Shown here piece by piece: positions 4,562-50,586 of a DNA stretch of 64,000 bases. Each line of letters starts with the position of its first letter. Position 1 is the stretch's first letter. The stretch comes from Spizellomyces punctatus DAOM BR117 (taxonomy: Eukaryota): the NCBI GenBank assembly GCA_000182565.2, contig KQ257457.1; one strand, 5' to 3'. The position numbers and the translations under genes are program-made. The notes under the pieces are model-generated. The model saw nothing but the letters and a program-made list of their open reading frames with translations, did not search any database and was not told the origin of the DNA.

Positions 4562-6593
4562 ATGGGTCTAATGCCAGCAGCGAGGGTAGCCAGAATGGCA
4601 AATGCAAACAGCGAAAAGACATCGTCGACAGCGCTGCACGCAAATGGAGGACCGATGACCTCGACAACAGCAGCCACTGTCACAAGTTCATCTACTACTA
4701 ATCCCGATGCTGATTGGTCGCTCCATCCGTCTGGGAAATATTACATTAGCAAGTCAAGTCCATGGTGCTACAGTGAGGCTTCTGGGTACTTTTACTTTGA
4801 TTCAAGCGGTAGGATAATAAAGCAAGATGAAGAATCCAAGCGTGAGGGAGAAACAGACACTGGGAAGGCTGCAAACGACGCGAGGGTCGAGCCAGTTGAA
4901 CAGCCACAGTCTGGACCCAACAGCCGGGACGAAAAGTTCAGGAGTTCAAAGGGAAAGCTTTCAATACTGAAGTTGGAAGAAGGGGAAATTGGAGAGGATG
5001 CGGAGACTGACAAAGTGGCGAAGGCCATGGTCCGAAGTGGCTACATACCGATGGAAGACCGTCGGCACTACTACCACCCAGACACAGGCTACGTGTACGA
5101 CACCTTAACCTCGTCGTATTCATTCTGGGACGAAGCGACCAAATCGTATGTACCTGTGCAAGACAACGGCCAGGCCGCTCCGCAGAGCAATGCCATGATG
5201 AAACTGGTTGTTATACAGTCGAAGCTCTTGGAGCCAGGTTCAATTATACTGGTGGATGCAACGGGGCTAACAGTTGGGAGAGACAAAGCCTTTGAGCGAC
5301 GTTTAGTCCTTAATGAAATCTCGGTTAGCCGGTTTCATTGCACAATTTATGTCAACCGGATAGTTGAGCCATTGGAGCCTATTCCAAATCGGCAGGCTGT
5401 CGAAGAACAGGAACCGGACACTGATGCAACCGTGGAAAAAGCGAATGAGCGAGAACAGATTGACTTTAGCAGTGCTCTAGAACGTGCTAAAGCGATTGCT
5501 GCTAGACTGACGGCAGACCTAAAATCACGCGGTAGGACGGGTCTGTCGACATAAGGAAGTCCGGCACAAGTGGAAATTGACTGTTGGTATTGACTTGCTA
5601 GACACAACCCCAATTCGGTCAACGTCTCCAACCCATGGAACCAAGCGTGTTTTTTCAGACGTGGAGGACTATCGGTCCTCATCACCCGCGGATAGTTTCC
5701 GCAGCAACACAAAGAGAAGCAGAGCGGGACCGCGACCACCTGAAAAGCGATTCATGGACTGCTTTTTTGTAACGGATGGAGGATCAACTCATGGGACATT
5801 CATAAACGGTGAGAGGTTGAGTCAACCAAAGGTAAGGTTTGGATAATGACACGAATATAACATCTTCTCTGAATATATTTTGGGACTTCAGATGAGCAGC
5901 CAACCTCATAGATTACAACATGGCGATACGCTTGTAATCGGCTCAACGACTATGAAAGTGCACATACACGCTTCCTGGGGATGCGACGAATGCCGAGTGA
6001 CATCCACAAATGTGATCAGTACCGAGCCAAAGTCAACACCGCCAAAGTCCGCAGACAATAACACGCCGCAGACTACCAAAGGGGAAAAGACAAAAAAGGG
6101 CTCTCTTGAAGTATCTCGACGCGAAGAACTCCGACGTCTAAAGCGTGAGGCACTAGGCGAAGACGCCGTTACAAAACCACGCGGCAAAAGGACGCAATAC
6201 GTTGACCGTGCTGCCATGCGTCGAAAAATGCATGGTGTGGACGCAAGTGTCATGGAGTTCCGGCAGGAGACTCAGGAGGAATCCAGTACCCATAGCTTTA
6301 CGCCTTCTGTTCCAACGCCTACACACGCGACGCCTATTACAGCTGCCGACCCTACCAACATTGGGAGCCGGATGCTGCAGAAGATGGGCTGGACCGAAGG
6401 GCAAGGCTTGGGTGCTAGCGGGGGTGGAAGGGTAGATCCTGTGGCTGTTTCCATGCGGATGGGAAGACAAGGGTTGGGAATGGGGACACCTGAGGAGGAT
6501 AACATTGGCGGAATGAGTGGAAGAAAGGAGACGTTGTATGAAGCGACGATGAGAAGGGCTAGAGAAAGATTCAATGAGATAAATAATGATTGA
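4562..6593 (+). CDS. AGGF1: OCRE-FHA-G-patch protein, AGGF1-like
   Basis: OCRE-like aromatic repeats (YYHPDTGYVYDTLTSSYSFWD). FHA motifs GRD..SRFH and DGGSTHGTFING. G-patch NIGSRMLQKMGWTEGQGLG. Introns ~5532-5599 and ~5832-5891. Start could be 4562 or 4595. Confidence 0.8.
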
Positions 6594-7636
6594 TGTTACA
6601 TAGCGTGGTCCCATCAGTCGGAAGAGCGCCGTTAATGTGCGCATCCAGCTCATTCATGTTCTTATAGATCACCTCCCAAAGTGATTCTTACTGATGACAA
6701 CGGTCACCCAAAGTTGTGGTATCTAAAAAGCGTGCATTCTGGCATCTTAACTCGACGTTCCTTTCAACCGGCATCACCAATTCTGATTCTGATTATCATA
6801 AATGGCCCACTCGAAGCTCTCATGCAATGCCTAGATTCAACTGAGTAACCCTTCCCAGGGTCTTACATATCAAAGTTTGAGTTTCGGCGCACATCTCAAC
6901 CACATTTTCAAAATGTGCATTTAGCTGCACATAGAGGCAATCGCATACAGCGATTCGATGTGGATTGCAAAAGATGGCATTGCATCACTCACATGTAAAG
7001 TCATTTATAATCTGCCATTATCTCGAGGTGAAGATTACCTGATTTGACTTTTAGCGATTTTGCCAGAGCTGAAGACAAACAGTTTTGTGATTCACCCCTA
7101 CCCACCAACCGGTAGTCACCAGAGTCAACACCCTCCCATTCCCTGCTAGCCCTCTATATCTCCTCGTAAAATGGGGCGCTGGCGGCCTTTCAATCGGGCT
7201 ATATTTGAAGAGACTGGCGATTGGCCGCGTACTGGTCGTCCAAATATCCACCGGCTCATGTTCCATCTCGTCACCAAAATGCCAGTACTGTTATAAACCG
7301 AAACTGGGGATATGAGAATGTGAGTCGTGAATCTCACCCGATCATTTGGGGATTGGCCTCATGTAAGTGACCATGGCGTGGAGGTGAATAAAGTGTCAAA
7401 GGTTTTGAGAGAGTTGTTTGAGGGGAGGAGGTTGCAGTAAGTCAATTTTGTAATGAACTGTAATGAAGAAGATGAACAGCAGATGTGTGTTTCGAGCAGT
7501 GTCAACAATGGATGACGAACTATCTATTGAGTACTGCTATCGCAGGTCTCGTGGTGAAATATCTATGTTTCTCCAAAAGCAAGTATATCATCGATATAGA
7601 TATTCCATCTCACGTATTTGCACTGAGAAACATCCA

Positions 7637-8396
7637 TAGTGTGGAGGTGATTGAAAATGGCACTAGGACCCATTATTATCCGGATTAATCCGGTTAGTCA
7701 TATCGCATAATCAGAACCCCCATCATTGCTCAAAGCGGTGAGGAGGCATGGATGCTAATGTTCTCCAAACTGCGGTGTGGCATGCTAATGTAGCTTTTTT
7801 TTTAAACTGCGGTGAGGCGCATGCCAAAGGTCTATAAAAGGGGGACCTGCTCCCTCTTCCCTCTTTCCTCTTTCCTCTTTACCCATCCTCGACTCAAAGC
7901 ATCCGCCCAACAAGTCTCAGTCCAATCATGAGAATACTGCTCTGGTGCCGAGGACCTCGACCGCCCAACAGCAACCGTGATCAGAACCAGCGGCAACCAA
8001 TCAGATCCGATAACAAAAACCTACTATTATGCTGCCACATTAGTTGAGCTTGGTTGGTATGTATCGATGGCATTTCTTGCATTTCTTGTCATCAGGTCAT
8101 CTTCTGACATGCAGTTTTAGTCTCCAAGCCTTGTCACTGAACATCCTCTGGCTTGTGACGCTGCCCAGTCGATTCGCTCCTGGATGCAAGAGTCTGGCTT
8201 CAATGCCATCAAGAGTTCCAGATCAAGGCCTAGTAGGGACCGCGTGTGGTGGTGGGCAATTATCCGGTTAGAACCAACCGTTACGTATTGCGTGTATAAT
8301 TGCCTAGTAGTAGCTTAGTTAGCTTTTCCAAACCGGTTGTCGCCGGTTTATTCCCTGGTGTAGTAGCTAGTGCCAGTTTCTGTCACCTCTACACTA
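7637..8396 (+). mobile_element. Non-autonomous TIR transposon, probable Fanzor1 'ghost' element (no nuclease ORF)
   Basis: Left end TAGTGTGGAGGTGATTGAAAATGGCACTAG (7637-7666) vs reverse complement of right end 8367-8396 TAGTGTAGAGGTGACAGAAACTGGCACTAG = 26/30. TA at both termini, CATA at 7635-7638. omegaRNA-like structure inside the right end. No long ORF. Confidence 0.85.
7732..7880 (+). promoter_or_regulatory. Putative Pol II promoter inside the ghost element
   Basis: Three AAA(CT)GCGGTG..GCATG repeats (~7732, 7767, 7804), TATAAAAG at 7833-7840, then a pyrimidine tract CTCTTTC x n. Confidence 0.45.
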
Positions 8397-8411
8397 TCCT
8401 ATCTGTCACCA
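8324..8411 (+). ncRNA. Fanzor omegaRNA-like guide RNA (scaffold ~8324-8396 plus ~15-nt flank-derived guide)
   Basis: TTTTCCAAACCGGTTGTCGCCGGTTTATTCCCTGGTGTAGTAGCTAGTGCCAGTTTCTGTCACCTCTACACTA. Stem AAACCGG/CCGGTTT (8330-8349) and stem TGGTGTAG/CTACACTA (8356-8363 with 8389-8396). Motif order matches my recollection of the SpuFz1 omegaRNA scaffold; not aligned computationally. Confidence 0.75.
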
Positions 8412-8484
8412 ACTGTTCACAGATACTTCATGGAGGTCAGAATATTTACCCATATATAGAAGATTACCCCTTGAAATTTTTGTA

Positions 8485-8557
8485 GCCCGGTTAGCTCAAT
8501 CGGTAGAGCGTGAGGCTCTTAACCTCAAGGTTGCGGGTTCGACCCCCGCATCGGGCT
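8485..8557 (+). tRNA. tRNA-Lys(CTT)
   Basis: Full cloverleaf: GCCCGGT/ATCGGGC acceptor, anticodon loop CTCTTAA, TTCGA T-loop. T7 terminator at 8579-8585. Confidence 0.97.
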
Positions 8558-8809
8558 GTTTCATAGGAATGAGGAATGTTTTTTTCCTTAACCGCAGCTG
8601 TCGCGCCTTGTTCCTGGTGGTTGCTTATAAGTAAGATATTTGTCGACCTTTGACGACGCACAGCACCGCAATTATCAAGAACTCCATACATCGGCAAGTA
8701 GCTGCATGATGACAGACTGGTAGTTGCAGTTGCCGTCAGCATTTCAACAATAGTTCTAAGCACACATCAAATCTCCCTAGACACCTACGTACACCATCAA
8801 GCATTATAC

Positions 8810-11800
8810 CTACACCTCATCCTCATCCACAACCACCCCTCCACATGGATGCACCCCGCCTATAGCTTCCTCGTCTTCGTCACAGGACAAAGATCCAGTT
8901 TCCGATGGTTGGAAACCATGTCGTCGCGCAACAATATGAATGTGATAGGCGTCTTCAAATGATAATGAATCTCGGTCGCCACCATTTGGGATGACGGTGT
9001 CCTCATCTGGGAACTGTATAAAGGACCCCATGGCAGTCGAGATACCTTCTTGAAACTTTTCGTCGCCGCCCAGGACGGGGAATTGACCGTTCGGAACAAG
9101 GGTTTTGTCATCCCTGAATAATTATACAATTTAGAATGTGCAGAATGTTGCAGGACAATGACAGGCACTTACCCATAGGGTTTAGGCGCCTCCCGTCTAA
9201 TCTGAACATGGAATGCAGCCGGAAGGTCGCTCAAATCGGGGCTATTCGGTTCAATAGAGACAAGAGACCGCGACGCATCAAACACTTGAAAGCAAAACTG
9301 CGGGCCCATCCATACTGGAGGTCTCGGCGCTGTTTCGTGCGTAACAATTTCAATCTTTGACGGCCACTGTATGCGTGATGGTGGTGATGATTTTGCTGCT
9401 GCTGTTGTTGTTGAAGTTGTTGTTGTTGGAGTTTGCGTTGGGTTGGTTCGAGTGGGAGCAGGAGGACGAGAAGGAGATGTTTGAACGGAGCGTTTGACTT
9501 CACCCCAGTCCATTTCGCGCTTCACGTTCCATTCCATGACTTCAGAGACTTTAACCCGAATATGCTGCTTTTTGCCTCCAAATCCCAACCCCGGGAACGC
9601 ACTAAAGAGCCCCGACGGAGAGAAGCGGTCAAATGACGACGGGCTAGCACCTGTGCTGGATCGCTTAGGTGAGGGCAGGAGGGTTTGAGGGCTGGCTGGG
9701 GTGGGATCTTCGAGTAGGACGTCAACATGATGCATCATGAGGCTGCCGCGGTCGGTAGGATGAAAGGTGAGGAGGCGTTGGCGGAACAGTCGGATCGCAG
9801 AGACTGGAGCTTCAGCTTGAGTGTGGGTCCAACTTCCACCACATGTCGTGCCAGCGGAACCGACAGGACTGCTCCTGTCGTGGGAACGGCGGTCATAAAC
9901 AGCCGCGGCCGTGTCTTTGAGCGCGTTCTTGTCGGGAAGGAAGGCGGCGATCAGAGGGGCACGACCACTTCCGCAGGTGATGCTATCATTAGAAACCACA
10001 CCTTCGGACCATGCTTCGCTTTTCGGAGACGCCTCGACAGGTTGACGCTTGATCCTTGCCACTGGGTACAAGCTGGCAATCCCTCCTTCAGCGGTCCCCG
10101 GTACCAAAGTCTGAGTCTGCTTCGGTTCCGCGAAACCATTGATAATGTTCAGGCGTTCACCATTCATACCATTCAAACTCTTTTCCTTCATAGACGCTGG
10201 GTTAATCCGATACACATGCGTCGTCCCCCGGGTGGTCGTCACGCCAACCCACTTGGAGTCCACCGAAAACGCGACACTCTCGATCGTCGCCATCGTGTAA
10301 CCCCGTTCGAGTTTGTATAAGCATTGAACGGCAGTCCGTGGTTTACCCTTGCTGCTTCGACCTGGGACCTGCCATATATAGAAGGTATTGGCTTGGCTGG
10401 AGGCCGTTATCACCAGTGTTTGGTTTGGGTTGAAGGCGATCACAGAGACAGGATTTGTGTGCGGTTTCCAATGGGCTATGGAAGGGGGATGCGGTTGTGG
10501 AGATGTTGTTGTCGATGAGTTTGAGGAGGGGGATGTCGGCGTAGGGAGGGGGCGGATCACAACCTTGACACACAGTTGAGTCAACAGTCCACATATTGTC
10601 TGATTCACTAACAACACTCACCACTCCGCTAGGCAGCTCGGCATATCTATCCAATTTCCCATTCTCTTTCACCTTCCCCCCAGGTGTACCATTCACCTTG
10701 ACGTCCTCCTCTGCACGCAAGGCGACTCCCTCTTTGGTGGCCGGCGAGAAGTAATTGCTCAAAGCCTGGTACCCATACTCTCCGATCACCTTGGCACCCA
10801 CGACCAAATCTTTTGCTACTTTACCAGCAACCTTCCGGGCCAATCCCGCATCCGGGATCCCGTCTGCGTCGTCGCTGTCGGGATCGGACGGCAATTCGTC
10901 AGTCGATGTTCCTTTGCGGCGGGAGGGCGGCGGGGGAGTAGATGTCGCGTAGATAATATAACGGGAACCGATGTCATAGACTATTGCGTTATTTAGGGGG
11001 TTTGGGCGAGTGTCGGTGTAGACGCCGAGGAGATGGAGTGTTAGAGCGGAATAAATATGGATGGCGTGGGACGCGAGGGACTACACTAATGTGAGAAATA
11101 TTTCAAACGTTAAATGTAGCACGGAAGCATGCGACTCACCACAGCAATGACCCTTGCATTACATTTCGCTTCTAGAGCTGTATCCTCTCCAAACTTTACA
11201 GTCTGCACAGCTGTCAGAGACCTCAACGAGTACAGCTGCAAGGCGCTCTGGGGCTTGCCACTTGAATCCTCGGAAACCACTTCAGTTCTGCAATGCGCCA
11301 TGATTCAGATGCTACAAGCCTGTACTTGAATTATCAATGTAACGTACATGTACGCAATGAGAGGTCTGGCGTGCTCCAAGTAGTCCGTGGAGCCATCTCG
11401 TCGATACGGAGTCGGTAATGCCTACCAAATAGCAAGAAGACATGAACAACAATCCCGCTCAACCAGCAGGAAGCGAGACGCTCACCTCCACCCACGTAAC
11501 CTTCCGGAGCCCCTCCCTCACCGACACCACCTCCCTCACATTCTCCAGGTCCCCCAAGCTCCATACCTGAAAGCCCCTCCCGTAACCCAGAAACAGGCAC
11601 AACTGCCGCTTATTCTCCCAATCCACCCAACAAAATGCAGCGGAAAGGACCCGTTCAGACGGATCAAGGGGATCAAACTCTGTGCTTGGGGACTTCTCAG
11701 AGAGGTTTTGGGCGACGTAGGACGAGATACCGTTAAGGTAGGATGCGATGCTCGATATGGCGGAAGGGGCTCTGTGAACATGTGTGAGAGATGATGATTT

Positions 11801-12448: not shown

Positions 12449-15400
12449 TCACCCGCCTCGTCGGCGTTTCCTACCTCTCCCCCGGTGCCCTCCACCACGT
12501 CCCGGCGAAGATAAATGACCCACAGATGCATCTACATTTGTCTGAACCTGCGCGTACGGATTCTGGAGCATGCCCAGTACGGATGACAGGAGAACGGAAA
12601 GGTCTACCTGAGGTTGCGCGAGAGAAGGTGGGAAGGATAATGGGTAGGATGGGAAGGGAGATGCGATAAAGGACTGTGACTGGGGAAGGGGCTGATTGTA
12701 TGTGGAGGGTGCCTGTTGGGATGGTGCATCCATTCCATCAGTAGAAGATCTTGAGTTTTCTTCGTCTTTTGGCCCTTTCCTCTCAAGTTCCTCCATAGCC
12801 ATCCGACACGCATCTGCCTTCGCATCTGCCTTTTTCGGAAATGCCGCAGAAGTCCACTTTTGTCCTTCTCCCGCCTCCATCGTAACCGTACACACAAACC
12901 ACGGTGCAGCATGCGCAGTACTCGGTGGAGGTACAGTGGAAAAATGTGCCTGGAACCGTGATTTCGTACGTAGGCAGTACTCGTGCAGAAGGATCGTGGA
13001 AGATTTTGATGTAGATGGAGTGGGTGAAGAGTCGATCCCGAGGGCTTTGCATGCCACATGGGCGGCATCTTCTTTTGCATTGCCACGTTTAGTGTGCGAC
13101 GAGGCTGATGTGTAAGTCTTGCCGCCAATTTGGATGGTAGCTTTATGGGATCCGCGTCCGCCGGGTCCCACGTGGTAGGTCCACTCAACATGTAGGCGCT
13201 GCCGAGTGACGTAGGACATGAACCGGGGGAGCCAGATGCGATGACCGGCCTGGGTGGCAGTAAAATCATCCAATAGCCCCATGACTTCTGACGGGTCCAT
13301 CTCGTCATCAGGTTTCTCTGTTACTTCCCCCTCCTCCCTATCTTCATCAGGATTTTCGTTGTCTTCTGCAGTGAAAATCTCTTCAAGCCGACCCGAAAAC
13401 CGTTCGGTCTTGGTCGCAGCCTCTCGATAGCAATGCATGAACAAACAAGCCAGTCTCGCGACGTCTTGAGCAGCATCCAAAGGCGAAGTGAACAAATAGG
13501 CGGACTCAAACTGTTCCTGAGCAACGGTGAGGTGACATCGGTAAAGATGCTTGGACGTAGTGGGATCGGAAAAGGTGAGAAGCTTGTAGGTTGGAGATTG
13601 AGAGTTGGGATACTGTTTTGCTACAAAGGTGGCAAGGCGGTCGATGAATGTACTGGACTGTGAATCGGACCTGGAGGTTGTTGGGTCGAATGACGAGGAG
13701 GAAATGGGGGGCCCCGTGGGCGTGTCAACGGCCATGGGTCCTGTGATCAGGTCTAGCTGGAAGTTCACAGGAGCGGTGGTGCTATCGTTTTGATCGTCTT
13801 CCATTTCGCTCTTTTCATCTTCGTCCCCACTAGCCTCATCCTCCTCAGTACTTGTCTCACTCTCCTCATCATCACTGCTCGTCGCTTTCTCCTCACTACT
13901 TGCGTCATTCTCCTCATCGTCACTACTTTGATCCTCCTCACTCGATATATCAGTGGCTTGAACCTCTACCATCGGATCGCTCTTCCCCATGAACGTTTCA
14001 ACCGCTTGCTTCAAAGCGGCCAAATCGTCTTCGATATCTGAGGAAATGAGATCGGCCAGGTCGTCTCCAGCATCATTCATTGGAGACGTTGTTTCATTGG
14101 GCTTTGTGTGATCGGTTTGTTGGTGTGAGAAAATGAGTTGGTCCTTGGATTGTGTATTAGACTTTTGAGAGGATTGTGTGGGAGATGGAGGTTTTCGCGG
14201 ATCACCCGTGTCATTTTGGAAGGGAGGTGGTGACTCCGAAATGTCGCTCATGGCCATCATATCAGCATCGAGCTGTTCGGGCCTTGAAGGTTCAGGCATC
14301 GTTGCGTCTTCCTCCTGAGCAGAAAAGGTGGTTCGGCCTGTGGCCGGATTGAAAGGGCTCTCACTATTCGTCCGCAGCTGTGTCTCGCCTGTTTCGCTCT
14401 TTAATCTCGATAACCGTCCACCGACATCCAGTGCTTTCAAAGCATCCCGCCTAACCGTGTATACTCCGTCAGGAGCGTTCTTTTCCAAAACATTGGCTAA
14501 AACCATCAAATTGACGACATTTTCTGTATTCGTAATAGTACCCCACTGAGGTTCTTGTACATGGAACTCGCTTATGTCACTCAAGAGGAGCTCCCTTGCT
14601 ATGCGCTCAAAATTATGGTTGAGCAGGACTTGGGCGGATTGGGAGAGCGTTTTAATGAAATAGGCTGGGAGGGATACAAATGGATTTGGCATTGGGGATG
14701 TAGGGGCGGGCAAGAGGATTCTGCGGGATGGACATGTTGGGAGATGGTAGGTAGAAGGCGCGAGAACGATGAAGGTTGTTTGGAGTGGTGCATGGGCATC
14801 CAGCAAGAGCATATGGGTGGCAATGACCTAATTAAGTCTTTATAAACCTTCCAGTCCCATAATTGCCCGCCAGAGCATTTCAAATACCTTATCAAGATCT
14901 TGTCCCTCGACACTCATCACAAAAACACGGTCCGGTGGACTGTTAACAAACGGGTTCTGCCAGGTACCCTCAACATAAACAGCCAATATCACATCCTTCG
15001 GGACTAGATACGACCTCAACCCCGTCAGGGCCTGTCGTCCTGCATTAGCGCCTATAAAGTAGACTGAGTGGATGGGATGGGGTGAAGGGAATATCCCGAA
15101 GAAAGAAGTATAGGGCGGTGAGAGTATCGACGACGTTGGCAGAAGCGACCCTTTATCCATCGACGAACAAAAATGAAATACGAATGTACGTGTGTTAGAT
15201 GGGAGATCAGGTGAGGCAGCGTGGTCGGACAGCGTCTTGGGTATATTCCAGCACTGGTTTCTTGGATGAATTGACCGAACAGGCTGCGTTCACCTTCCTC
15301 ATGCAACCATCGTCGTCGTTCTGGAAATCCTCTCCCAGCACAATCCCCCAACCAACTGCTGTTGCCACGGCAACACGATGCTGTAATCTGATCGAGGCTG

Positions 15401-15636: not shown

Positions 15637-17073
15637 ATGATATCCTCAAAGGCATCTCAGTCCACCAACACTACCATTCATGCGCATCAAAACGCAGCCC
15701 GGAAAACAAAAACCATCTCCCGTACTGTTCCAGCTGGTCGGCATGTTTTGTTTACGTTGCAGTCAAGCACAAGCCGAGGATTCGGCACGCATGATGGGAT
15801 TCCGCTTATGGCGAAGCGAGCTGCACTGGAAGTCGTAGAATGGTTCTGGGAAGAGATTGTGCCCGTGCTGAGAGAGAAGGTAGAAGGGAATGACGACAAT
15901 ATCTCAAAATGGGTGGTTCATCTTTCTGTTGTTGGGCATAGTTTGGGGGGTCTAATTGCACGATACCTCATCAAACTTTTACTGGAACGACTGTCTGTAG
16001 GGAGAAATGGAACCTCCGCAGCAACATCACTGCGTACCGTGTTTGACGCCAACGGGTGGATGACGTTGAAACCACTGACGTTTATGACAGTGTGTTCTCC
16101 ACATTTTGGGTCCCGCCGGAGTGCCAAGCCGGGATCATGGACAGCCCCCGTCTTTCAGGGTATTGTAAGATTTTACCTGACTAATATTGCCGGGCAGACT
16201 GGGAAAGAGCTGTATTTGATTGATGGCACGTCGTCTTTGTCCGCCACGGAACCATGGTCTGATGATTCCCGCGTCCCGTTACTGATTCGAATGGCCGACC
16301 CTCGCTCATCGTACATGAGTACCCTCCGAGAGTTTCGTCCAATCCTTGTGGCAGCTGTGCGCAACGACATTCCCGTCGGGTATTGCTCTGCGGCGGTGAC
16401 GAGCGTCAATCCGCATGCTGAACTGCTGAGCAATGGCGGGGAGGTGGGCGCTGTGGTGGAAGTGACTGCAGGCAGAGAAGTAGGATTACGGGTCATGAGC
16501 TTTTCTGGGTTTCGAACGGAGGCAGTCCCCACGCCTGTGAACCGCAAAATTGGGTTAATGACCAAAGAAGAAGCTGATCCCGTGCGGCAGTTTTGGGTGG
16601 ATCGGCTGTTTGGTGGTGGATCGATTCAAGACGATCCGATACTGCAGAAGATCCGGACTGACCAGACAGTTGAGATTCTGGGACCGCGTGGCACGATGCA
16701 CCACCACCAGGAGCCTTTTCACGACGCACCGTTGTACAATGATCCGCCTTCGTATAATGGCTTCTTGTCAAGTCTCTTATCACCTCCTCCCCCGACAGCC
16801 CCTACAGACGCTTTTGTGCCGGACCACCACCACGACAATCTAATTCCAACACGACTCTTGGCGCGTCTCCAAGAGACATTATGGAATGCACGACGAATCA
16901 ACATTGATTTTGTACTGTCAAACCCCGTAAGCCGAGCGACGGTGCATGCGCTTGCTGTTGGGAAAGCGGAAGGGGGAGTGTTGAATGTCGATGGGCAGGT
17001 GGCAGCGCAACAGGCTGGATGGTTTTTGGCGCGTATCGTCCTATTGGATTATCTGTACGCCTGCGACGAGTGA
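15637..17073 (+). CDS. DUF676-type putative serine esterase/lipase
   Basis: Uninterrupted 478-aa ORF with LSVVGHSLGGLIARY, FMTVCSPHFGS, GQTGKELYLID and NDIPV motifs. Confidence 0.8.
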   Translation: MISSKASQSTNTTIHAHQNAARKTKTISRTVPAGRHVLFTLQSSTSRGFGTHDGIPLMAKRAALEVVEWFWEEIVPVLREKVEGNDDNISKWVVHLSVVGHSLGGLIARYLIKLLLERLSVGRNGTSAATSLRTVFDANGWMTLKPLTFMTVCSPHFGSRRSAKPGSWTAPVFQGIVRFYLTNIAGQTGKELYLIDGTSSLSATEPWSDDSRVPLLIRMADPRSSYMSTLREFRPILVAAVRNDIPVGYCSAAVTSVNPHAELLSNGGEVGAVVEVTAGREVGLRVMSFSGFRTEAVPTPVNRKIGLMTKEEADPVRQFWVDRLFGGGSIQDDPILQKIRTDQTVEILGPRGTMHHHQEPFHDAPLYNDPPSYNGFLSSLLSPPPPTAPTDAFVPDHHHDNLIPTRLLARLQETLWNARRINIDFVLSNPVSRATVHALAVGKAEGGVLNVDGQVAAQQAGWFLARIVLLDYLYACDE

Positions 17074-24170: not shown

Positions 24171-24386
24171 ATGGATGCTTGTGTTGACTTTACTACTAGA
24201 ATATATGCCATTCACATCATATGAGCATTTGCACCGACATTTCATGCTTTCGGCGCATTCTATGAGACCTATATATCGTCTTTAAAGTACTCATCAGTAC
24301 TTCTTAAATAGGAACTGCGAAAACACGACCATCATTACTGTGTTTGTTTATACTTGTGATCGACTGTTACACAGATTATATTGAAA

Positions 24387-24459
24387 GCCCGGTTAGCTCA
24401 ATCGGTAGAGCGTGAGGCTCTTAACCTCAAGGTTGCGGGTTCGACCCCCGCATCGGGCT
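24387..24459 (+). tRNA. tRNA-Lys(CTT)
   Basis: Identical to 8485-8557. T7 at 24480-24486. Confidence 0.97.
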
Positions 24460-24860
24460 GTCTTTAAGAAGGCTTCGAATTTTTTTCGCTGAACGAAATT
24501 GAATGTGGTGTTTTGAAAGGATTATCCGTTGGATAGCACAATGCTGGGCAATAGATGTTCCCTCGAAAGTAGCGAAATGTTCTTGATTATTCGTTGTTTT
24601 TTGATTTTTTAAGAAATAATAAATGTGCAAGTAATGCTACACTAGTTACTAGCAAGTAGATATGGAGGATGGGCCTTTAAATACCTGCCGAATCCTATGA
24701 ACATTGCACAGACACTACAACTAAGACCTGAACTAGCAGGAGCCCCCACAAGCATCTCTAAGGTAAAAAACAAATGGAAAACAAAACGTAAATATACCTA
24801 AACAAAAGGAGAAAACAGCTGCTTCACGACCCGTTCCGCCCTCCCACTTGCACACAACCT

Positions 24861-45254: not shown

Positions 45255-46010
45255 ATGGACACTGCTGACACTCTCCAACCAGCGACGGGTGGTACCAATT
45301 CATTCCCATCAGAGGCAAATGTGATTGCCCCAGCGAAACGCAAGGTCAAAATCCCGCCCATAACGGCTCCTCCCTCCACTCACTCTGAGATCAACACCTA
45401 TGACTGGCGCTATGACCCCGACATGTCCTTTGACGACAATTACATTGACCTGGCCTGTCTCGTTGCACGAAACAGTCTTTCGCAAAAGGGACATATGGGC
45501 GCCGTTCTCATTGAACCTCCCTCCACATTGAACACAGCGTCCAATATCCTTTTGCTAGCAACAAACGTTCCAGTCTATCCACCACCACCTTCAAAGAATA
45601 TGAAAGCGAGCGCAGAAATCCACGCCGAGGCCAATGCAGTCTCATCGTGCGCTCGACAAGGGATCAAGACAAGCGGAGCATGGGCCTACATAACATTTCC
45701 ACCCTGCAAAGAATGCTTTATGCTGCTCGTGTACGCAGGGATCAAACGAATTGTATTTAGACGCAAAGTGGTGGCGGAGGGCATGTGGGATGTTGCAAAG
45801 GCGTGGGGTGTCGAGCTAGTAGAGCGCCGAGATATGGAACAAGATGCCAATGGAGCTGAAAGGTGTCGAGAATGGGTTCGGATGTGGGAGGAGAAGCGTG
45901 GCGAGCCAGACGGTATAGATGCAGCAGCGGCCATCCCCTCCAAGCGAAAGATTGAGAGTGTTGACAATAGCCAGGTGATGCCAATAAATGTTACAAATGG
46001 TGCAGCCTGA
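45255..46010 (+). CDS. Cytidine/dCMP deaminase-family zinc protein
   Basis: IHAEANAV and YITFPPCKEC zinc-binding motifs, GIKRIVF. Intronless. Confidence 0.85.
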   Translation: MDTADTLQPATGGTNSFPSEANVIAPAKRKVKIPPITAPPSTHSEINTYDWRYDPDMSFDDNYIDLACLVARNSLSQKGHMGAVLIEPPSTLNTASNILLLATNVPVYPPPPSKNMKASAEIHAEANAVSSCARQGIKTSGAWAYITFPPCKECFMLLVYAGIKRIVFRRKVVAEGMWDVAKAWGVELVERRDMEQDANGAERCREWVRMWEEKRGEPDGIDAAAAIPSKRKIESVDNSQVMPINVTNGAA

Positions 46011-46125
46011 AAATATCTTTTTTTGCCGTTCTCCTAAAGAACGTGTGGAAAGATGTGAAGGCTCTTCAGTTTGGACTAGAATGGCTAAAACGTCGACAAT
46101 ACTGTTTACCCCTTGAATTTCCGTA

Positions 46126-46198
46126 GCCCGGTTAGCTCAATCGGTAGAGCGTGAGGCTCTTAACCTCAAGGTTGCGGGTTCGACCCCCGCATCGGGCT
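46126..46198 (+). tRNA. tRNA-Lys(CTT)
   Basis: Identical to the other two copies. T6 at 46222-46227. Confidence 0.97.
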
Positions 46199-46345
46199 GT
46201 CGATCATGTCGCTGAATACACTTTTTTGCAAACTGCAGCCCTGTTGTGTGATTTGACGGCAAAACTATTTCTTGTTCCCTCCCTTAGAATTTGTTATTAG
46301 GGCTCCAAGCGTCTGCTGACTGTCTATTTTTTATTCAATCCTTTT

Positions 46346-46386
46346 ATGCCACGTTGTGAAATGCCACGTTGTGAAATGCCACGTTG
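46346..46386. repeat. 15-bp tandem repeat x ~2.7 (ATGCCACGTTGTGAA)
   Basis: Direct reading: units at 46346, 46361 and 46376. Confidence 0.9.
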
Positions 46387-47058
46387 CAACTTTTGCAAAA
46401 GAATGCCTTATTGACTACAAACTATCCATATAAACACACATGAAGCTTGTAAGAGAGAGAGAGAGAGAGGGAATTCCCCCCTATTAGAAATAAACTAATT
46501 CTCTCTCTCTCTAATAATACAAACTGCTCTCTCATTCAATGTAGGAATTCCCCCAAGAGTCATTCCAAAACAATCCCGGAATCTCCCGTTATTTCTTACG
46601 CGTTTTTTTCTTACAAGAGATTTTATTATAGCTGTCACATAAAAGTTTGTAGACGGCTGCACACTTTAACCTCCAAGCCTCACTGCCGCCCATCGTTGTC
46701 GTCGTCGTCGTTTTTGTTTCTTGTGGATTTACTACACTTTTACAACTGTCAAGTAACTACCTACGCACCCTTTTTTTTTTTATATCAAGCCCTTTTATAC
46801 GACGCGCTTTCAAAGAGTGTTTGTCTCTCTTCCATAAAAGTTCCTCACAAATGCATAGAGTCTTTCAAGGACTACGGCCCATCTTTGGTGTAGGGCACTT
46901 TAATCCCACTGCTGATGGAGTATCAAAGGCAAGTCTCTTTATAAACAATCAAAGGAGGTTTGGCAAAGGGGGCTGCACGCGTGATATGGGGGGAAATAGC
47001 AGTCAGTTCCTGCCTTTTGAGTAGCGTTGGACATTGGGTACACTTTTTCTGACTGGGA

Positions 47059-48705
47059 ATGATTGCCACTCTCCTCCAGGCTGCGGCATTCTTGGGCGGA
47101 CTCGGAGGGAACTCTGACGAACCCATTCACGATCCGTTCCTAGGAACAGATATCCAGACCGTCCATCCTCCTCGCCTGCACGCTTCCCAACCACAGCAAC
47201 AACAACAACCTCAACAACAACAAGCACCACACCAGCATCTATACCAATCACATTTAGCTCCATGCAGTTCGTTGGAAACTAGCGCTCCTTTGGTGGCCCC
47301 GTCCGCCGAGGCCGTCACAGTTCAACCAGCACTCTTGGACACGCTCCCCACCGTCTCTTTCCTACAACCACCCGCACGCGCGCACCCGCCAACACCGATA
47401 TCCACACTATTAGCTTTTAGAAAGCAGATAAAGAATGACACGGCCGTAGAAGAGAATCTCTTGGATCCTGTCGCTGTGGTGGATTTTGCCCAGGAATTGA
47501 CAGTGCCTGGTGTGGAAGGATTGGATAGCACGTCGCAGATGACTTGTAGTATAGATTTTGAGGTACGTGGTCCTACGGATTCCCGGCGTGCCGTATTTCC
47601 CACCAGAACGACCTATTGACTTTTTTCGTGTNNNNNNNNNNNNNNNNNNNNNNNNNNNNNNNNNNNNNNNNNNNNNNNNNNNNNNNNNNNNNNNNNNNNN
47701 NNNNNNNNNNNNNNNNNNNNNNNNNNNNNNNNNNNNNNNNNNNNNNNNNNNNNNNNNNNNNNNNNNNNNNNNNNNNNNNNNNNNNNNNNNNNNNNNNNNN
47801 NNNNNNNNNNNNNNNNNNNNNNNNNNNNNNNNNNNNNNNNNNNNNNNNNNNNNNNNNNNNNNNNNNNNNNNNNNNNNNNNNNNNNNNNNNNNNNNNNNNN
47901 NNNNNNNNNNNNNNNNNNNNNNNNNNNNNNNNNNNNNNNNNNNNNNNNNNNNNNNNNNNNNNNNNNNNNNNNNNNNNNNNNNNNNNNNNNNNNNNNNNNN
48001 NNNNNNNNNNNNNNNNNNNNNNNNNNNNNNNNNNNNNNNNNNNNNNNNNNNNNNNNNNNNNNNNNNNNNNNNNNNNNNNNNNNNNNNNNNNNNNNNNNNN
48101 NNNNNNNNNNNNNNNNNNNNNNNNNNNNNNNNNNNNNNNNNNNNNNNNNNNNNNNNNNNNNNNNNNNNNNNNNNNNNNNNNNNNNNNNNNNNNNNNNNNN
48201 NNNNNNNNNNNNNNNNNNNNNNNNNNNNNNNNNNNNNTTGACTGCTGAGATTGGAACGCAGTTGATGCGCTTGCAGCGAATATGATGGGGACGGACGGAG
48301 CGCTGTCCGAGACGTTGTTCAGGCCGTGACGGCCTTGTCGATGCTGTTACCGGGAAACGGTAGCCTCATGGGTATGTGTTGTGTTTACGCACAAGAAGAT
48401 TCTAGTCAAATGTTGATCCAGTTGTGTGTTGAACAGCAGGAGACGGTGCGATGACGCAGCAAGCAACCGACATGTCTGCGATTTCTCCAGACCAAAACGC
48501 CACGGCTGCTGCGGTCGCTGCTGCTGCCGCCGCCCTGGTTGCTGGATTCAACGAAACGGCCATGCAGCAGAGTACGGACGCCATGATGACGCAGGACAAT
48601 GAAGCGCAGATGATGGATATTGGGAAAGGTAGCGTATTTGGCGTACGATCCTTCTTGGTAGCATACGTTCCAACCGACTTTATACAACAGGAGACGATAG
48701 TCTAA
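47059..48705 (+). CDS. Hypothetical Q/A-rich protein spanning the assembly gap
   Basis: Exon 47059-~47562 (poly-Q, donor GTACGT). After the gap, exons ~48277-48371 and ~48436-48628, and a short last exon ending at TAA 48705. Confidence 0.5.
47632..48237. other. Assembly gap (606 N)
   Basis: Run of N. Confidence 1.
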
Positions 48706-48880
48706 TGGGATCACCGCCACAGAGCATGCAACAAGTAGTGACGGCTTAGACAATTAGACAACAGCAGGGTGTGGACGATGATACAAAAGACTGACGAATG
48801 TCGTTGAGATTGCATAGTACAGTGACAGTGTCAGTGCAAAAGACACCACAAGGGGACTCTCCAAAATCATGCGAGTGCAG

Positions 48881-48905
48881 TATATATATATATATATATA
48901 TATAT
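48881..48905. repeat. (TA)n microsatellite
   Basis: Direct reading. Confidence 0.9.
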
Positions 48906-50586
48906 TCGAAGAATGAAAAGCTATTTTTATGTCTGTACAAGAGAGATGTGTGTAGAATCGCTCAAGGACCCAATCCAAACTTGAGCACTCCACCGGCCGT
49001 TAAAGCGTCCGCTACTGCCTGTTTGTCTTTTTCATCTTGTGTTGCAGAGGGTTTGTTGTCGTGACTGGCATTATGAGGTTGCGTGTGGGAGGGTTTGGAA
49101 GTTGTTGACGTGCTGGCTTGTTGACCAGTTTGTTGCTTGTTTTGAGCTGCATGCAGTGATTGTTTGGTATTCGAATCTTTTACTGCCATTGAAAGCCAAG
49201 TCTTACCTGATGTATTCGCCTTGTCCATTGTTTTTGTTTTTACAAGTGTTAAAACCAGTGGATTTCTCCCTTTATATCAACTGATACCCGCTTACATAAT
49301 GCGTGACATCATGTCAGGAGGTGTGACCCGTTGGGAGACCACGGACACAGAGGGAGTGTGATGTGGAAGTCCTTTTGCTTTTTTATTTATTGGATTTTGG
49401 TGAGTGACATTTTATGGGGTTTTGTGAGGATTGTTGGATCAGTGTCAAGATGTGATTGTTAAGGATTTTTCTTTTTTTGGGGGGTGTGTGAGGTTTGCTT
49501 TGTTGGATGATCATCAAAAAGGAGTTGAGTGGTTGGGTTGGTTGGTGGTTAGCAAGAGTGATTGACAGCAGCAACATCAGCAGCAATAGGAAAACAAAGC
49601 GAGTCACGCCTATTATTTCAACAGATGCCGACTGCGCAGGGGGAATCGATGTCGGTCAGCAAAAATGTGAGCTCAGCCCTCCAAATCCCCGGTGCTGCAA
49701 AAGGGGAAAATAGGGGGATAAATAGGTCGCTTTTGGGACAATGATCGTGGTCTCTTCTTTACTTTAAACTGTCCTTTTCTTGTGCGCGGCCACTAGATGT
49801 ACAGCTCAATTGTTTACCAACACACTTGTGTTGTCAGCAAGATAGGCCGTCTTTACAGGTTTGTTGTAAATTGCCATGTGACGGGTATTGATAAAAGTGA
49901 CGACGACGACGACGACGACGACGGGGAAAACACCAAAAACACAGCGCAAAAAAACGCAGACAGGAGTAAACTGGTACCCTTTTTTTGCGGAGGACTCGTA
50001 GGAGGGTTTAAACGCGTTCGGACACTCTAGTGTTCGCTTTTTTTTAAATTTGGGCATCAACAACCTTTTTGGAGCGACTTGCGCAAGTCATGGACAGTCC
50101 CCCCCTTCTCCAAAGGACTCTGCGGGTTTTGCGGAGGGGGGAACCTTGCAAGGAGCAGCCAAGAAAACAAACAACAACAACAACAGACAGGAGGAGGAAG
50201 AGATTTGGACTTTTTTGTGGGAGGGCGGTCGTCTCTCCTTTTTTCTTTTGTTTTTTGATTTGTGATTTGCCGCTTGGGCGGATGTTTGCGAGTTGAATGG
50301 ATTTCTTATAAGTTGGGTTTTCTGGAGGGGGAACTTGTTGCCCTTGACTTTCCCTTCTGTCGTATTCCTTACTGCTTCTCCTTGACAAAAAGTGTTCCTT
50401 TTTGACCCCCATTAACTGTTATTTTATGGAATTTTGACACTTTTCCCAAACTTTTGGTTTCTTCTTTTTTTGTTAAATGATCGATTGCATGCATCAGGAG
50501 CTTTCTGCGTTGCTCTTACATCTGTCAAAGTAAAACGATTTAAGGCACCTTTACTTTGTTTGCCGGTTTTCATTACAATTACAGAT

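What the first reader, a model, noticed from the sequence alone, without database searches (positions are those of the whole stretch)
8324..8411. omegaRNA-like scaffold with apparent compensatory changes and a flank-derived guide
Seen: stem 1 AAACCGG-(TTGTCG)-CCGGTTT and long-range stem TGGTGTAG/CTACACTA that closes exactly at the element boundary, with GCTAGTGCCA inside. Compared with the SpuFz1 scaffold as I recall it (TTTTCC..CCGGTTGTCG..CGGTT..TCCCTGGTG..GCTAGTGCCA..CACTA), the substitutions appear to preserve pairing (GTGTAG/CTACAC here vs GTGCGG/CCGCAC), which suggests selection on RNA structure. Inference: the guide is TCCTATCTGTCACCA (8397-8411). The TAM+target CATA-TCCTATCTGTCACCA exists only on the element-free allele, so cutting would favour retention or homing of the element. 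A divergent natural scaffold could also be useful for genome-editing engineering.
Basis: partly seen in the sequence, partly recalled or inferred. Interest (0 to 1): 0.88.

Follow-up and report, generated by a model that had tools for sequence, protein, structure and literature searches.

The report
Known "ghost" Fanzor guide-RNA element

Summary
The motifs lie at 8324-8411. The 73-nt stretch folds into the two stems described (dG -23 kcal/mol, z -4.35). Stem 2 closes at 8396, the edge of a mobile element.

That element spans 7637-8396 (760 nt). It has 30-nt terminal inverted repeats (26 of 30 match), a CA just before the left end, and no Fanzor coding remnant inside. In sequencing runs it is a family of roughly 100 copies whose edges match the repeats. 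The window is Spizellomyces punctatus DAOM BR117.

Saito et al. 2023 (PMC10432273) described 134 "ghost Spu-1 elements" in this genome, with 30-nt repeats, the CA, a 75-nt omegaRNA, a 14-15-nt guide and a CATA TAM. Ghost scaffolds work with SpuFz1 in human cells. A 2026 paper (PMC13434818) catalogued 126 unique ghost scaffolds.

- **Match to canonical omegaRNA:** 15 of 18 nucleotides named in the paper fit. C40:G70 becomes U:A here, which is compensatory.
- **Sister copies:** they covary at two stem-1 pairs.

Verdict: a real omegaRNA with a flank-derived guide, and already known.

Side lead: the ghost transcript seems to start after a TATA box and to carry a spliced 64-nt intron.

The parts
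7635..7636 (+). CA dinucleotide just upstream of the left inverted repeat. Together with the TA that begins the repeat it reads CATA, the SpuFz1 TAM.
   Evidence: Sequence. Saito 2023 section 7 reports a conserved CA upstream of the 5' IR in Fz and ghost loci.
7637..7666 (+). Left-end 30-nt terminal inverted repeat.
   Evidence: I1, 31 nt, 87%; 26 of 30 match the reverse complement of 8367-8396, and 0 of 200 shuffles reach the observed score.
7767..7818 (+). Two copies of a 15-nt motif (7767-7781 and 7804-7818, 93% alike) just upstream of the TATA-like box. They may be a promoter element; the function is inferred only.
   Evidence: D1.
7833..7840 (+). TATAAAAG, a TATA-box-like motif inside the element. 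It is a candidate promoter of the ghost transcript.
   Evidence: Sequence. In one search, contigs of the run labelled RNA (X11) begin at 7853, and X9 depth rises from 697 (7797-7829) to 7946 (7863-7895).
8057..8120 (+). 64-nt intron-like segment: GTATGT at the 5' end, CTGAC 14 nt before the 3' end, and TTTTAG at the 3' end.
   Evidence: Sequence. table 5 shows a joint 8055->8120 (GT..AG, cut +1) in X9 (3 contigs), X17 (1) and X11 (1), and none in X1. Depth in bin 8061-8093 is 0 in X9 and X17 but 115 in X1.
8323..8396 (+). omegaRNA scaffold, 74-75 nt. Stem 1 is 8330-8337/8342-8349, the linker is 8350-8355, and stem 2 is 8356-8396 with its base at 8356-8363/8389-8396. It contains the right-end inverted repeat.
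   Evidence:: 15 of 18 named canonical nucleotides fit when nt 1 = 8323.
8367..8396 (+). Right-end 30-nt terminal inverted repeat, which forms the 3' half of stem 2.
   Evidence: One search lists no variant at 5% or more in 8350-8396.
8397..8411 (+). Inferred 15-nt guide, made of flank sequence (TCCTATCTGTCACCA).
   Evidence: The position follows Saito 2023 section 7: transcripts run 14-15 nt beyond the conserved scaffold. Depth of the repeat family drops in the 8391-8423 bin. The sequence is unique in the window at up to 2 mismatches.

Best explanation
Window 7637-8396 is a non-autonomous 'ghost Spu-1' element of Spizellomyces punctatus. It is a short relative of the Fanzor1 transposon Spu-1 that keeps the 30-nt terminal inverted repeats and the right-end omegaRNA gene but has no Fanzor gene. 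The last 74-75 nt (8323-8396) encode the omegaRNA scaffold: stem-loop 1, a 6-nt linker and stem 2, whose 3' strand is the right inverted repeat. Transcription runs into the flank, so the next 14-15 nt (8397-8411) become the guide. SpuFz1 protein made from full-length Spu-1 copies elsewhere in the genome would load this RNA in trans. It would then cut DNA that carries CATA followed by the guide sequence. That is the sequence expected at this site without the element (CA + TA + flank). A cut there would favour repair from the occupied copy, and so retention or homing of the element.

Shown here: the anatomy, the repeat family, the match to the published description, and covariation. Shown by others for sister ghost loci: they support SpuFz1 editing in human cells. 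Inferred: expression and loading of this particular copy, the form of the empty site, and the homing outcome.
For: - **Organism.** ORF 15637-17073 is 100% identical over 100% of its length to 'SPPG_05009 [Spizellomyces punctatus DAOM BR117]'.
- **Inverted repeats.** 26 of 30 positions match, CA sits at 7635-7636, and the right end reads ...CACTA.
- **No Fanzor gene.** No ORF of 60 aa or more with a start codon exceeds 75 aa between 6600 and 8320. For 8 stop-to-stop ORFs chosen from the 21 that one search lists, Pfam found nothing at or above its cut-offs (only BppL_N at 17.6 bits against a cut-off of 25.8). For the 2 ORFs nearest the scaffold, the PDB search found no Fanzor chain (only 5y6p at E 0.28).
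- **Repeat family.** 239 (X1), 374 (X9), 20 (X17) and 16 (X11) contig pieces lie on 7500-8480. Depth steps up at the left end and down after the right end. The X1 depth ratio to the flank is about 75-115 at both ends.
- **Published description.** Saito 2023 (sections 7, 9, 10 and passages) reports 134 ghost loci, 30-nt IRs, the CA, a 75-nt scaffold, a 14-15-nt guide, TAM CATA, and a ghost stem 2 with a 3-nt bulge. The MFE fold here has a 3-nt bulge at 8367-8369.
- **Named-nucleotide test.** 15 of 18 nucleotides named in Saito section 10 fit at the expected place. The misfits are G22, C40 (U here) and G70 (A here), and 40:70 are pairing partners.
- **Covariation in stem 1 among copies.** Pair 8335:8344 is G-C here. 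G>A and C>T occur together on one X17 contig (record 24), and C>T alone is commoner (6 against 2 contigs in X1), which gives G-U intermediates. Pair 8330:8349 is A-U here, G-U in nearly all other copies, and G-C in some.
- **Target-site duplication.** A putative TA duplication is reported for SPu-1 (PMC3627910).
Against: - **Length.** The element is 760 nt between its repeats, whereas the paper gives 'around 550 nt' for the conserved ghost region. The 5' part (7731-7796) has low family depth, so this copy may carry extra sequence. I could not align whole sister copies.
- **No RNA evidence for this copy.** At 8330 all X1 depth (307.8 of 307.8) and nearly all X9 depth (85,735.9 of 86,102.9) carries G rather than this copy's A. 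No listed piece spans 8397-8411.
- **No empty-site evidence.** No contig joins 7636 to 8397 (table 5).
- **Weak discriminating power of the named-nucleotide test.** Used as a scan it is weak: another site in the window scores 14 of 18 by chance. Its weight comes from being met at the place fixed beforehand by the inverted repeat.
- **Sequence not seen.** I could not see the canonical or ghost sequences themselves, because the supplements are closed.
- **Rfam.** It holds no matching family; the only hit in 6500-9500 is the tRNA.
Confidence: 0.9

Rival explanations
1. It is a ghost Spu-1 copy by descent but a dead relic in function. This copy's omegaRNA is not made or not loaded, and its guide has no target left in the genome, so it does nothing today.
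For: No contig laid can be assigned to this copy's scaffold, since nearly all carry G at 8330. The guide has no second match in the window. The element is longer than the published ~550 nt and its 5' part is less shared. Saito 2023 found no transposase for Spu-1 (Discussion passage).
Against: The scaffold shows no disruptive change. Its one private difference (A at 8330) turns a G-U pair into A-U. Positions 8350-8396 show no difference from the family at the 5% level. The TATA-like box and the intron signals are intact. X9 holds about 367 depth units with A at 8330, against 6.3 in the flank. That would fit expression of this copy or a like copy if X9 is RNA.
Confidence: 0.2
2. It is one of the 'partial Fz' loci, a Spu-1 copy with an internally deleted Fanzor gene, rather than a member of the separate ghost family.
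For: Saito 2023 counts 42 Fz loci, of which only 19 are full-length. The scaffold shares 15 of 18 named nucleotides with the canonical omegaRNA.
Against: No similarity to any Pfam family above cut-off or to any PDB Fanzor chain was found in the internal ORFs tested. The internal 7930-8320 region is itself multi-copy, as expected for the conserved ghost body. The MFE stem 2 has the 3-nt bulge given as the ghost hallmark.
Confidence: 0.04
3. It is a chance pair of hairpins in an intergenic region upstream of a tRNA gene, unrelated to Fanzor.
For: The short motifs alone are not rare. GCTAGTGCCA at up to 1 mismatch gives 3 matches against 2.56 expected. A chance site scores 14 of 18 in the named-nucleotide scan.
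Against: The fold z-score is -4.35. The terminal inverted repeat is reached by 0 of 200 shuffles. There is a family of roughly 100 copies with matching edges and with covariation. The host genome is the one in which the family was described.
Confidence: 0.01

Closest known systems
Ghost Spu-1 elements and ghost omegaRNAs of S. punctatus (Saito et al. 2023, PMC10432273; gst1-gst126 in PMC13434818)
   Same: Same genome, 30-nt terminal inverted repeats, CA before the left end, no Fanzor ORF, a 74-75-nt scaffold ending at the right repeat, stem 2 with a 3-nt bulge, a 15-nt flank-derived guide, and many copies.
   Different: This copy is 760 nt between the repeats, against 'around 550 nt'. It has a private A at 8330 where nearly all other copies have G. 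Which catalogued locus or gst number it is could not be looked up, because the supplements are closed.
Canonical SpuFz1 omegaRNA (75-nt scaffold plus 15-nt guide; cryo-EM structure in Saito et al. 2023)
   Same: The 5' UCC, the stem-loop 1 loop UGUCG, a 6-nt linker A..C.C, a stem 2 that opens U.G and closes A..A, and a guide that follows at once. 15 of 18 named nucleotides fit.
   Different: There is no Fanzor gene upstream. Pair 40:70 is U:A rather than C:G. The stretch between nt 20 and nt 29 is one nucleotide shorter, and G22 is not matched. The distal stem 2 differs (bulge instead of an 8-nt loop, per the paper).
TnpB omegaRNA (reRNA) of IS200/IS605 elements such as ISDra2
   Same: The RNA is encoded at the transposon's right end, its guide is the adjacent flank, the TAM lies at the left-end junction, and the target is the element-free site. 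(The role in transposon retention is established knowledge of TnpB and is cited in the Saito Discussion.)
   Different: The host is a eukaryote. The element has terminal inverted repeats and a putative TA duplication rather than sub-terminal hairpins without duplication. The scaffold does not overlap a nuclease ORF. The nuclease acts in trans from other loci.

Membership tests
Ghost Spu-1 element (Saito et al. 2023) | Lies in the genome of Spizellomyces punctatus DAOM BR117 | tested here: met
   a window ORF is 100% identical over 100% of its length to SPPG_05009 of that strain.
Ghost Spu-1 element (Saito et al. 2023) | 30-nt terminal inverted repeats | tested here: met
   7637-7666 against 8367-8396, 26 of 30 match; 0 of 200 shuffles reach the observed 27 of 31.
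Ghost Spu-1 element (Saito et al. 2023) | Conserved CA directly upstream of the 5' repeat | tested here: met
   CA at 7635-7636.
Ghost Spu-1 element (Saito et al. 2023) | No Fanzor ORF between the repeats | tested here: met
   the longest stop-to-stop frame is 75 aa; no Pfam family above cut-off in 8 ORFs, and no Fanzor chain in the PDB for 2 ORFs.
Ghost Spu-1 element (Saito et al. 2023) | Conserved body of about 550 nt between the repeats | tested here: inconclusive
   This copy is 760 nt between the repeats. Family depth is high for 7797-8396 but low for 7731-7796. Whole sister copies could not be fetched.
Ghost Spu-1 element (Saito et al. 2023) | 75-nt right-end region similar to the canonical omegaRNA, with a 3-nt bulge in stem 2 | tested here: met
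   15 of 18 named nucleotides fit; the MFE has a 3-nt bulge at 8367-8369. The sequences themselves were not seen.
Ghost Spu-1 element (Saito et al. 2023) | Many copies in the genome (134 loci reported) | tested here: met
   239 and 374 contig pieces in X1 and X9. The X1 depth at both ends is about 75-115 times the flank depth, which is only a rough proxy.
Fanzor1 omegaRNA (functional OMEGA guide RNA) | Transcribed as an 88-90-nt RNA that runs 14-15 nt into the flank | not testable with these tools
   Only contigs were available and they cannot show RNA ends. An X11 (RNA-labelled) contig of a sister copy covers 8151-8398 and then runs 16 nt into a different flank.
Fanzor1 omegaRNA (functional OMEGA guide RNA) | Binds SpuFz1 and directs cleavage next to a CATA TAM | not testable with these tools
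   Published for four ghost loci (PMC10432273 section 9) and for further ghost scaffolds (PMC13434818 section 8). Not shown for this copy.
Fanzor1 omegaRNA (functional OMEGA guide RNA) | Secondary structure under selection (covariation) | tested here: met
   stem-1 pairs 8335:8344 (G-C, G-U, A-U) and 8330:8349 (A-U, G-U, G-C). Pair 40:70 is C:G in the canonical RNA and U:A here. Linkage of the two sides was seen directly on only one contig.

The most novel reading that the evidence does not exclude
Ghost Spu-1 elements are self-contained RNA polymerase II transcription units. Each would have a TATA box (7833-7840), a start near 7850-7865, a real 64-nt spliceosomal intron (8057-8120) and the omegaRNA at the 3' end. 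Ghost omegaRNAs would then be cut out of a spliced, very abundant non-coding transcript. That would be a eukaryote-specific route of omegaRNA biogenesis. I found it in none of the passages read, and in no paper of the library that holds the words Fanzor, ghost and intron together.
Probability: 0.5. Interest if true: 0.45.

Novelty: already known. Interest (0 to 1): 0.15.

Why it matters
As an omegaRNA it adds nothing new. Ghost Spu-1 omegaRNAs were described in this very genome in 2023 and shown to work with SpuFz1. In 2026, 126 unique ghost scaffolds were catalogued, and one of them (gst28) was engineered into a compact editing scaffold. The result does show that a sequence-only reader can recognise such an RNA and its guide correctly.

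The one point that may be worth a specialist's time is the side lead. The ghost transcript seems to have its own TATA-type promoter and a spliced intron. If so, this would say how protein-less guide carriers are expressed in a eukaryote. It might also explain why a long 5' extension improves omegaRNA activity in human cells (PMC10432273 section 9; PMC13434818 section 8).

Tried and rejected
- **Whole-genome search for sister copies.** No genome is held for this window.
- **Rfam at E up to 10 on 6500-9500.** Only the tRNA matched, and no omegaRNA family.
- **Metagenome-contig scans.** Two scans, one with a gapped scaffold pattern and one with a 25-nt right-end string, each gave 0 matches. No full sister loci were obtained, so no RNAalifold or pair-count analysis on aligned copies was possible.
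- **Full-text search for printed scaffold strings.** 7 papers matched and none concerns Fanzor.
- **Other papers.** PMC11423790 holds none of the words ghost, stem 1, stem 2, C40, G70 or pseudoknot. The review PMC13565253 holds none of ghost, Spizellomyces or SpuFz1.
- **Other copies in the window.** There are none. blastn of the element against the window finds only itself and its own repeats, and the motif searches agree. The LE-like hit at 7374 has 2 mismatches and was not followed up.
- **Elements upstream of the other two tRNA-Lys genes.** None was seen.
- **A Fanzor gene elsewhere in the window.** No TnpB or Fanzor family was found in 17 of 17 ORFs of 250 aa or more, plus one of 237 aa.
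- **A small protein encoded by the ghost body.** Rejected. No start codon opens the frame that would run across the splice junction. Most sister copies differ by a 1-nt deletion at 8015 (13,564 of 17,447 depth in X9). Variant positions show no third-codon bias.
- **Parts without cover.** Bins 8424-8480 in all runs and the intron bin in X9 and X17 are uncovered. These are not evidence on their own, since the tool warns that a hole proves nothing.

Full report
**Observation.** TTTTCC lies at 8324-8329 and AAACCGG/TTGTCG/CCGGTTT at 8330-8349. TGGTGTAG is at 8356-8363, GCTAGTGCCA at 8366-8375 and CTACACTA at 8389-8396, and the next 15 nt (8397-8411) are TCCTATCTGTCACCA. Folded alone, 8324-8396 gives exactly two helices: 8330-8337 with 8342-8349, and a long stem 2 whose base is 8356-8363 with 8389-8396. 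The energy is -23 kcal/mol against a mean of -12.07 for 200 dinucleotide shuffles (z -4.35), and 1 shuffle folds as well. In a 212-nt context the same two helices persist, but the whole stretch is not unusual (z -1.54).

**What surrounds it.**
- No Fanzor-sized ORF lies upstream. Between 6600 and 8320 the longest ORF with a start codon is 75 aa.
- A 31-nt inverted repeat joins 7636-7666 to 8367-8397 at 87%. As 30-mers, 7637-7666 and 8367-8396 match at 26 of 30 positions. None of 200 shuffles of 7400-8600 reaches the observed 27 of 31, and the best reaches 22.
- The finding is therefore the right end of a 760-nt element, 7637-8396.
- CA precedes the left repeat (7635-7636), and both ends carry TA (TAGTG... 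and ...CACTA).
- The element is single-copy in the window.
- It sits between the 3' end of an OCRE/G-patch gene and a tRNA-Lys(CTT) gene at 8484-8558.

**It is a repeat family.** No genome is held for the window, so I used public runs.
- 20 of the 24 listed rows hold part of 7600-8450.
- I laid the contigs of four coded runs on 7500-8480 at 80% likeness or more. This gave 239 (X1), 374 (X9), 20 (X17) and 16 (X11) pieces.
- In X1 and X9 the flank 7500-7631 has depth of about 4-6. From the bin that holds the left repeat the depth rises to hundreds or more. It stays high to 8358-8390, falls in 8391-8423 and is 0 beyond.
- An X1 contig of 1379 nt covers 7500-7662 without a difference, so this very left junction exists in that sample.
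- In X1 the depth at both ends is about 75-115 times the flank depth. This is only a rough proxy for copy number, as the tool warns.

**Identity.**
- ORF 15637-17073 is 100% identical over its whole length to 'SPPG_05009 [Spizellomyces punctatus DAOM BR117]'. The next best hits are other chytrids at 47% or less.
- Saito et al. 2023 worked on this genome (PMC10432273; I read sections 7 and 10 and passages of sections 9, 11 and the extended-data legends). They report 42 loci with full or partial Fanzor genes and 134 'ghost Spu-1 elements'.
- Those ghost elements have 30-nt inverted repeats that differ from the Fz-locus repeats at seven positions. They have a conserved CA before the 5' repeat, a conserved body of about 550 nt and no Fz ORF. 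Their 75-nt right-end region resembles the canonical omegaRNA. The paper reports 88-90-nt RNAs with a 14-15-nt variable extension at four Fz loci.
- They also report the CATA TAM and a ghost stem 2 with 'a 3-nt bulge instead of an 8-nt hairpin loop'. Ghost omegaRNAs from four loci gave indel rates comparable with those of the improved canonical scaffolds.
- The element here meets these points:
  - the repeats and the CA;
  - no Fz remnant: no Pfam family above cut-off in 8 internal ORFs, and no Fanzor chain in the PDB for the two ORFs next to the scaffold;
  - a 3-nt bulge at 8367-8369 in the MFE;
  - many copies.
- One point is not met cleanly. The element is 760 nt long rather than about 550 nt, and the part at 7731-7796 has low family depth.

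**Comparison with the canonical omegaRNA.** No held text prints the sequence and the supplements are closed. Section 10 of Saito 2023 does name 18 nucleotides: U5, C6, C7, U16, G17, U18, C19, G20, G22, A29, C32, C34, U35, G37, C40, G70, A72 and A75.
- With nt 1 at 8323, and one nucleotide fewer between nt 20 and nt 29, 15 of the 18 fit.
- The three misfits are G22, C40 (U at 8361) and G70 (A at 8391). The other pair (41:69) could not be checked.
- As a blind scan this test is weak, because another window site scores 14 of 18. Here it was applied at a place fixed beforehand by the inverted repeat.

**Covariation among copies (table 3).**
- Pair 8335:8344 is G-C here. G>A (2 contigs in X1, 3 in X9) and C>T (6 and 6) occur in the family. 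Both lie on one X17 contig (record 24, 8287-8374, three other letters in all), which gives A-U. C>T alone gives G-U.
- Pair 8330:8349 is A-U here, G-U in nearly all other copies (G in 307.8 of 307.8 depth in X1) and G-C in a minority (T>C in 2 X1 contigs and 13 X9 contigs).
- 8339 G>C lies in the loop.
- No variant at 5% or more is listed for 8350-8396.
- Depths count contigs, not loci, and linkage of the two sides is shown directly only once.

**Mechanism.** Bao and Jurka 2013 (PMC3627910, passages) describe SPu-1 with putative TA target-site duplications. With CA before the left end, the site without the element would read CA-TA followed by TCCTATCTGTCACCA, that is, the CATA TAM plus the guide target. 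The occupied right junction reads ACTA plus the target. It remains inferred here:
- no empty allele was seen (no joint from 7636 to 8397);
- the guide has no other match in the window;
- no laid contig can be assigned to this copy's scaffold.

**Novelty.** The class is known, and so is the proposed use. PMC13434818 (2026; passages of sections 4, 8, 9 and 19) collated 126 unique ghost scaffolds of 74-76 nt from this genome, tested representatives and engineered gst28. I could not look up which catalogued locus this one is.

**Side lead.**
- TATAAAAG lies at 7833-7840 inside the element.
- The segment 8057-8120 has GTATGT at its 5' end, CTGAC 14 nt before its 3' end, and TTTTAG at the 3' end.
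- Contigs that skip exactly this segment (joint 8055->8120, GT..AG) occur in X9 (3), X17 (1) and X11 (1, labelled RNA-Seq), but not in X1. The bin 8061-8093 has depth 0 in X9 and X17 but 115 in X1.
- In X9 the depth climbs from 697 (7797-7829) to 171,105 (8358-8390), against 6.3 in the flank. That ratio of about 27,000 does not fit DNA of a family whose X1 ratio is about 100.
- I therefore read X9 as RNA-like, although the tool labels it 'DNA?', and X1 as DNA-like. Both are my inferences, and contig depths are poor measures.
- If this is right, ghost elements are transcribed from their own promoter, spliced, and carry the omegaRNA at the 3' end.
- 'Intron' does not occur in Saito 2023. Of the 10 papers listed out of 174 that hold at least three of Fanzor, ghost, intron and 'transcription start', none combines Fanzor with ghost.

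**Verdict.** The feature is a ghost Spu-1 omegaRNA and is already known.

Noticed in passing
window 8057-8120: A 64-nt segment inside the ghost element has textbook fungal intron signals (GTATGT ... CTGAC ... TTTTAG). Contigs of X9, X17 and X11 skip it exactly, while the DNA-like run X1 covers it and shows no skipping contig. It may be a spliced intron in the omegaRNA precursor.
   Followed up: partly
window 7767-7840: TATAAAAG lies at 7833-7840, preceded by two copies of a 15-nt motif (7767-7781 and 7804-7818). Contigs of the RNA-labelled run start at 7853, and X9 depth rises just downstream. This is a candidate internal promoter of the ghost element.
   Followed up: partly
window 8400-8425: The guide and target region forms a near-palindrome with the next bases (TATCTGTCACCA / TGTTCACAGATA, 83%, I8). 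By eye, a similar ACTGTT(A)CACAGAT string lies just upstream of the tRNA-Lys gene at 24386. The ghost element may therefore have inserted into a conserved tRNA-upstream sequence.
   Followed up: no
window 8484-8558, 24386-24460, 46125-46199: There are three identical-looking tRNA-Lys(CTT) genes on the + strand within 38 kb. The ghost element ends 88 nt upstream of the first. The upstream 20 nt of the first and third genes look alike.
   Followed up: no
window 7374-7387: TGGCGTGGAGGTGA resembles the start of the left inverted repeat with 2 mismatches, and lies 263 nt upstream of the real left end. It may be chance or the relic of an older insertion. blastn of the whole element finds nothing else there.
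   Followed up: partly
window 46001-50000: G+C content falls to 0.38-0.41, against 0.43-0.53 in the rest of the window. No ORF of 250 aa or more lies there. It was not examined.
   Followed up: no
window 12449-14812 (-): A 787-aa ORF carries a double-stranded-RNA-binding motif and a weak Dicer-dimerisation match. It is an RNA-silencing-type gene about 4 kb from the ghost element, probably by coincidence.
   Followed up: no
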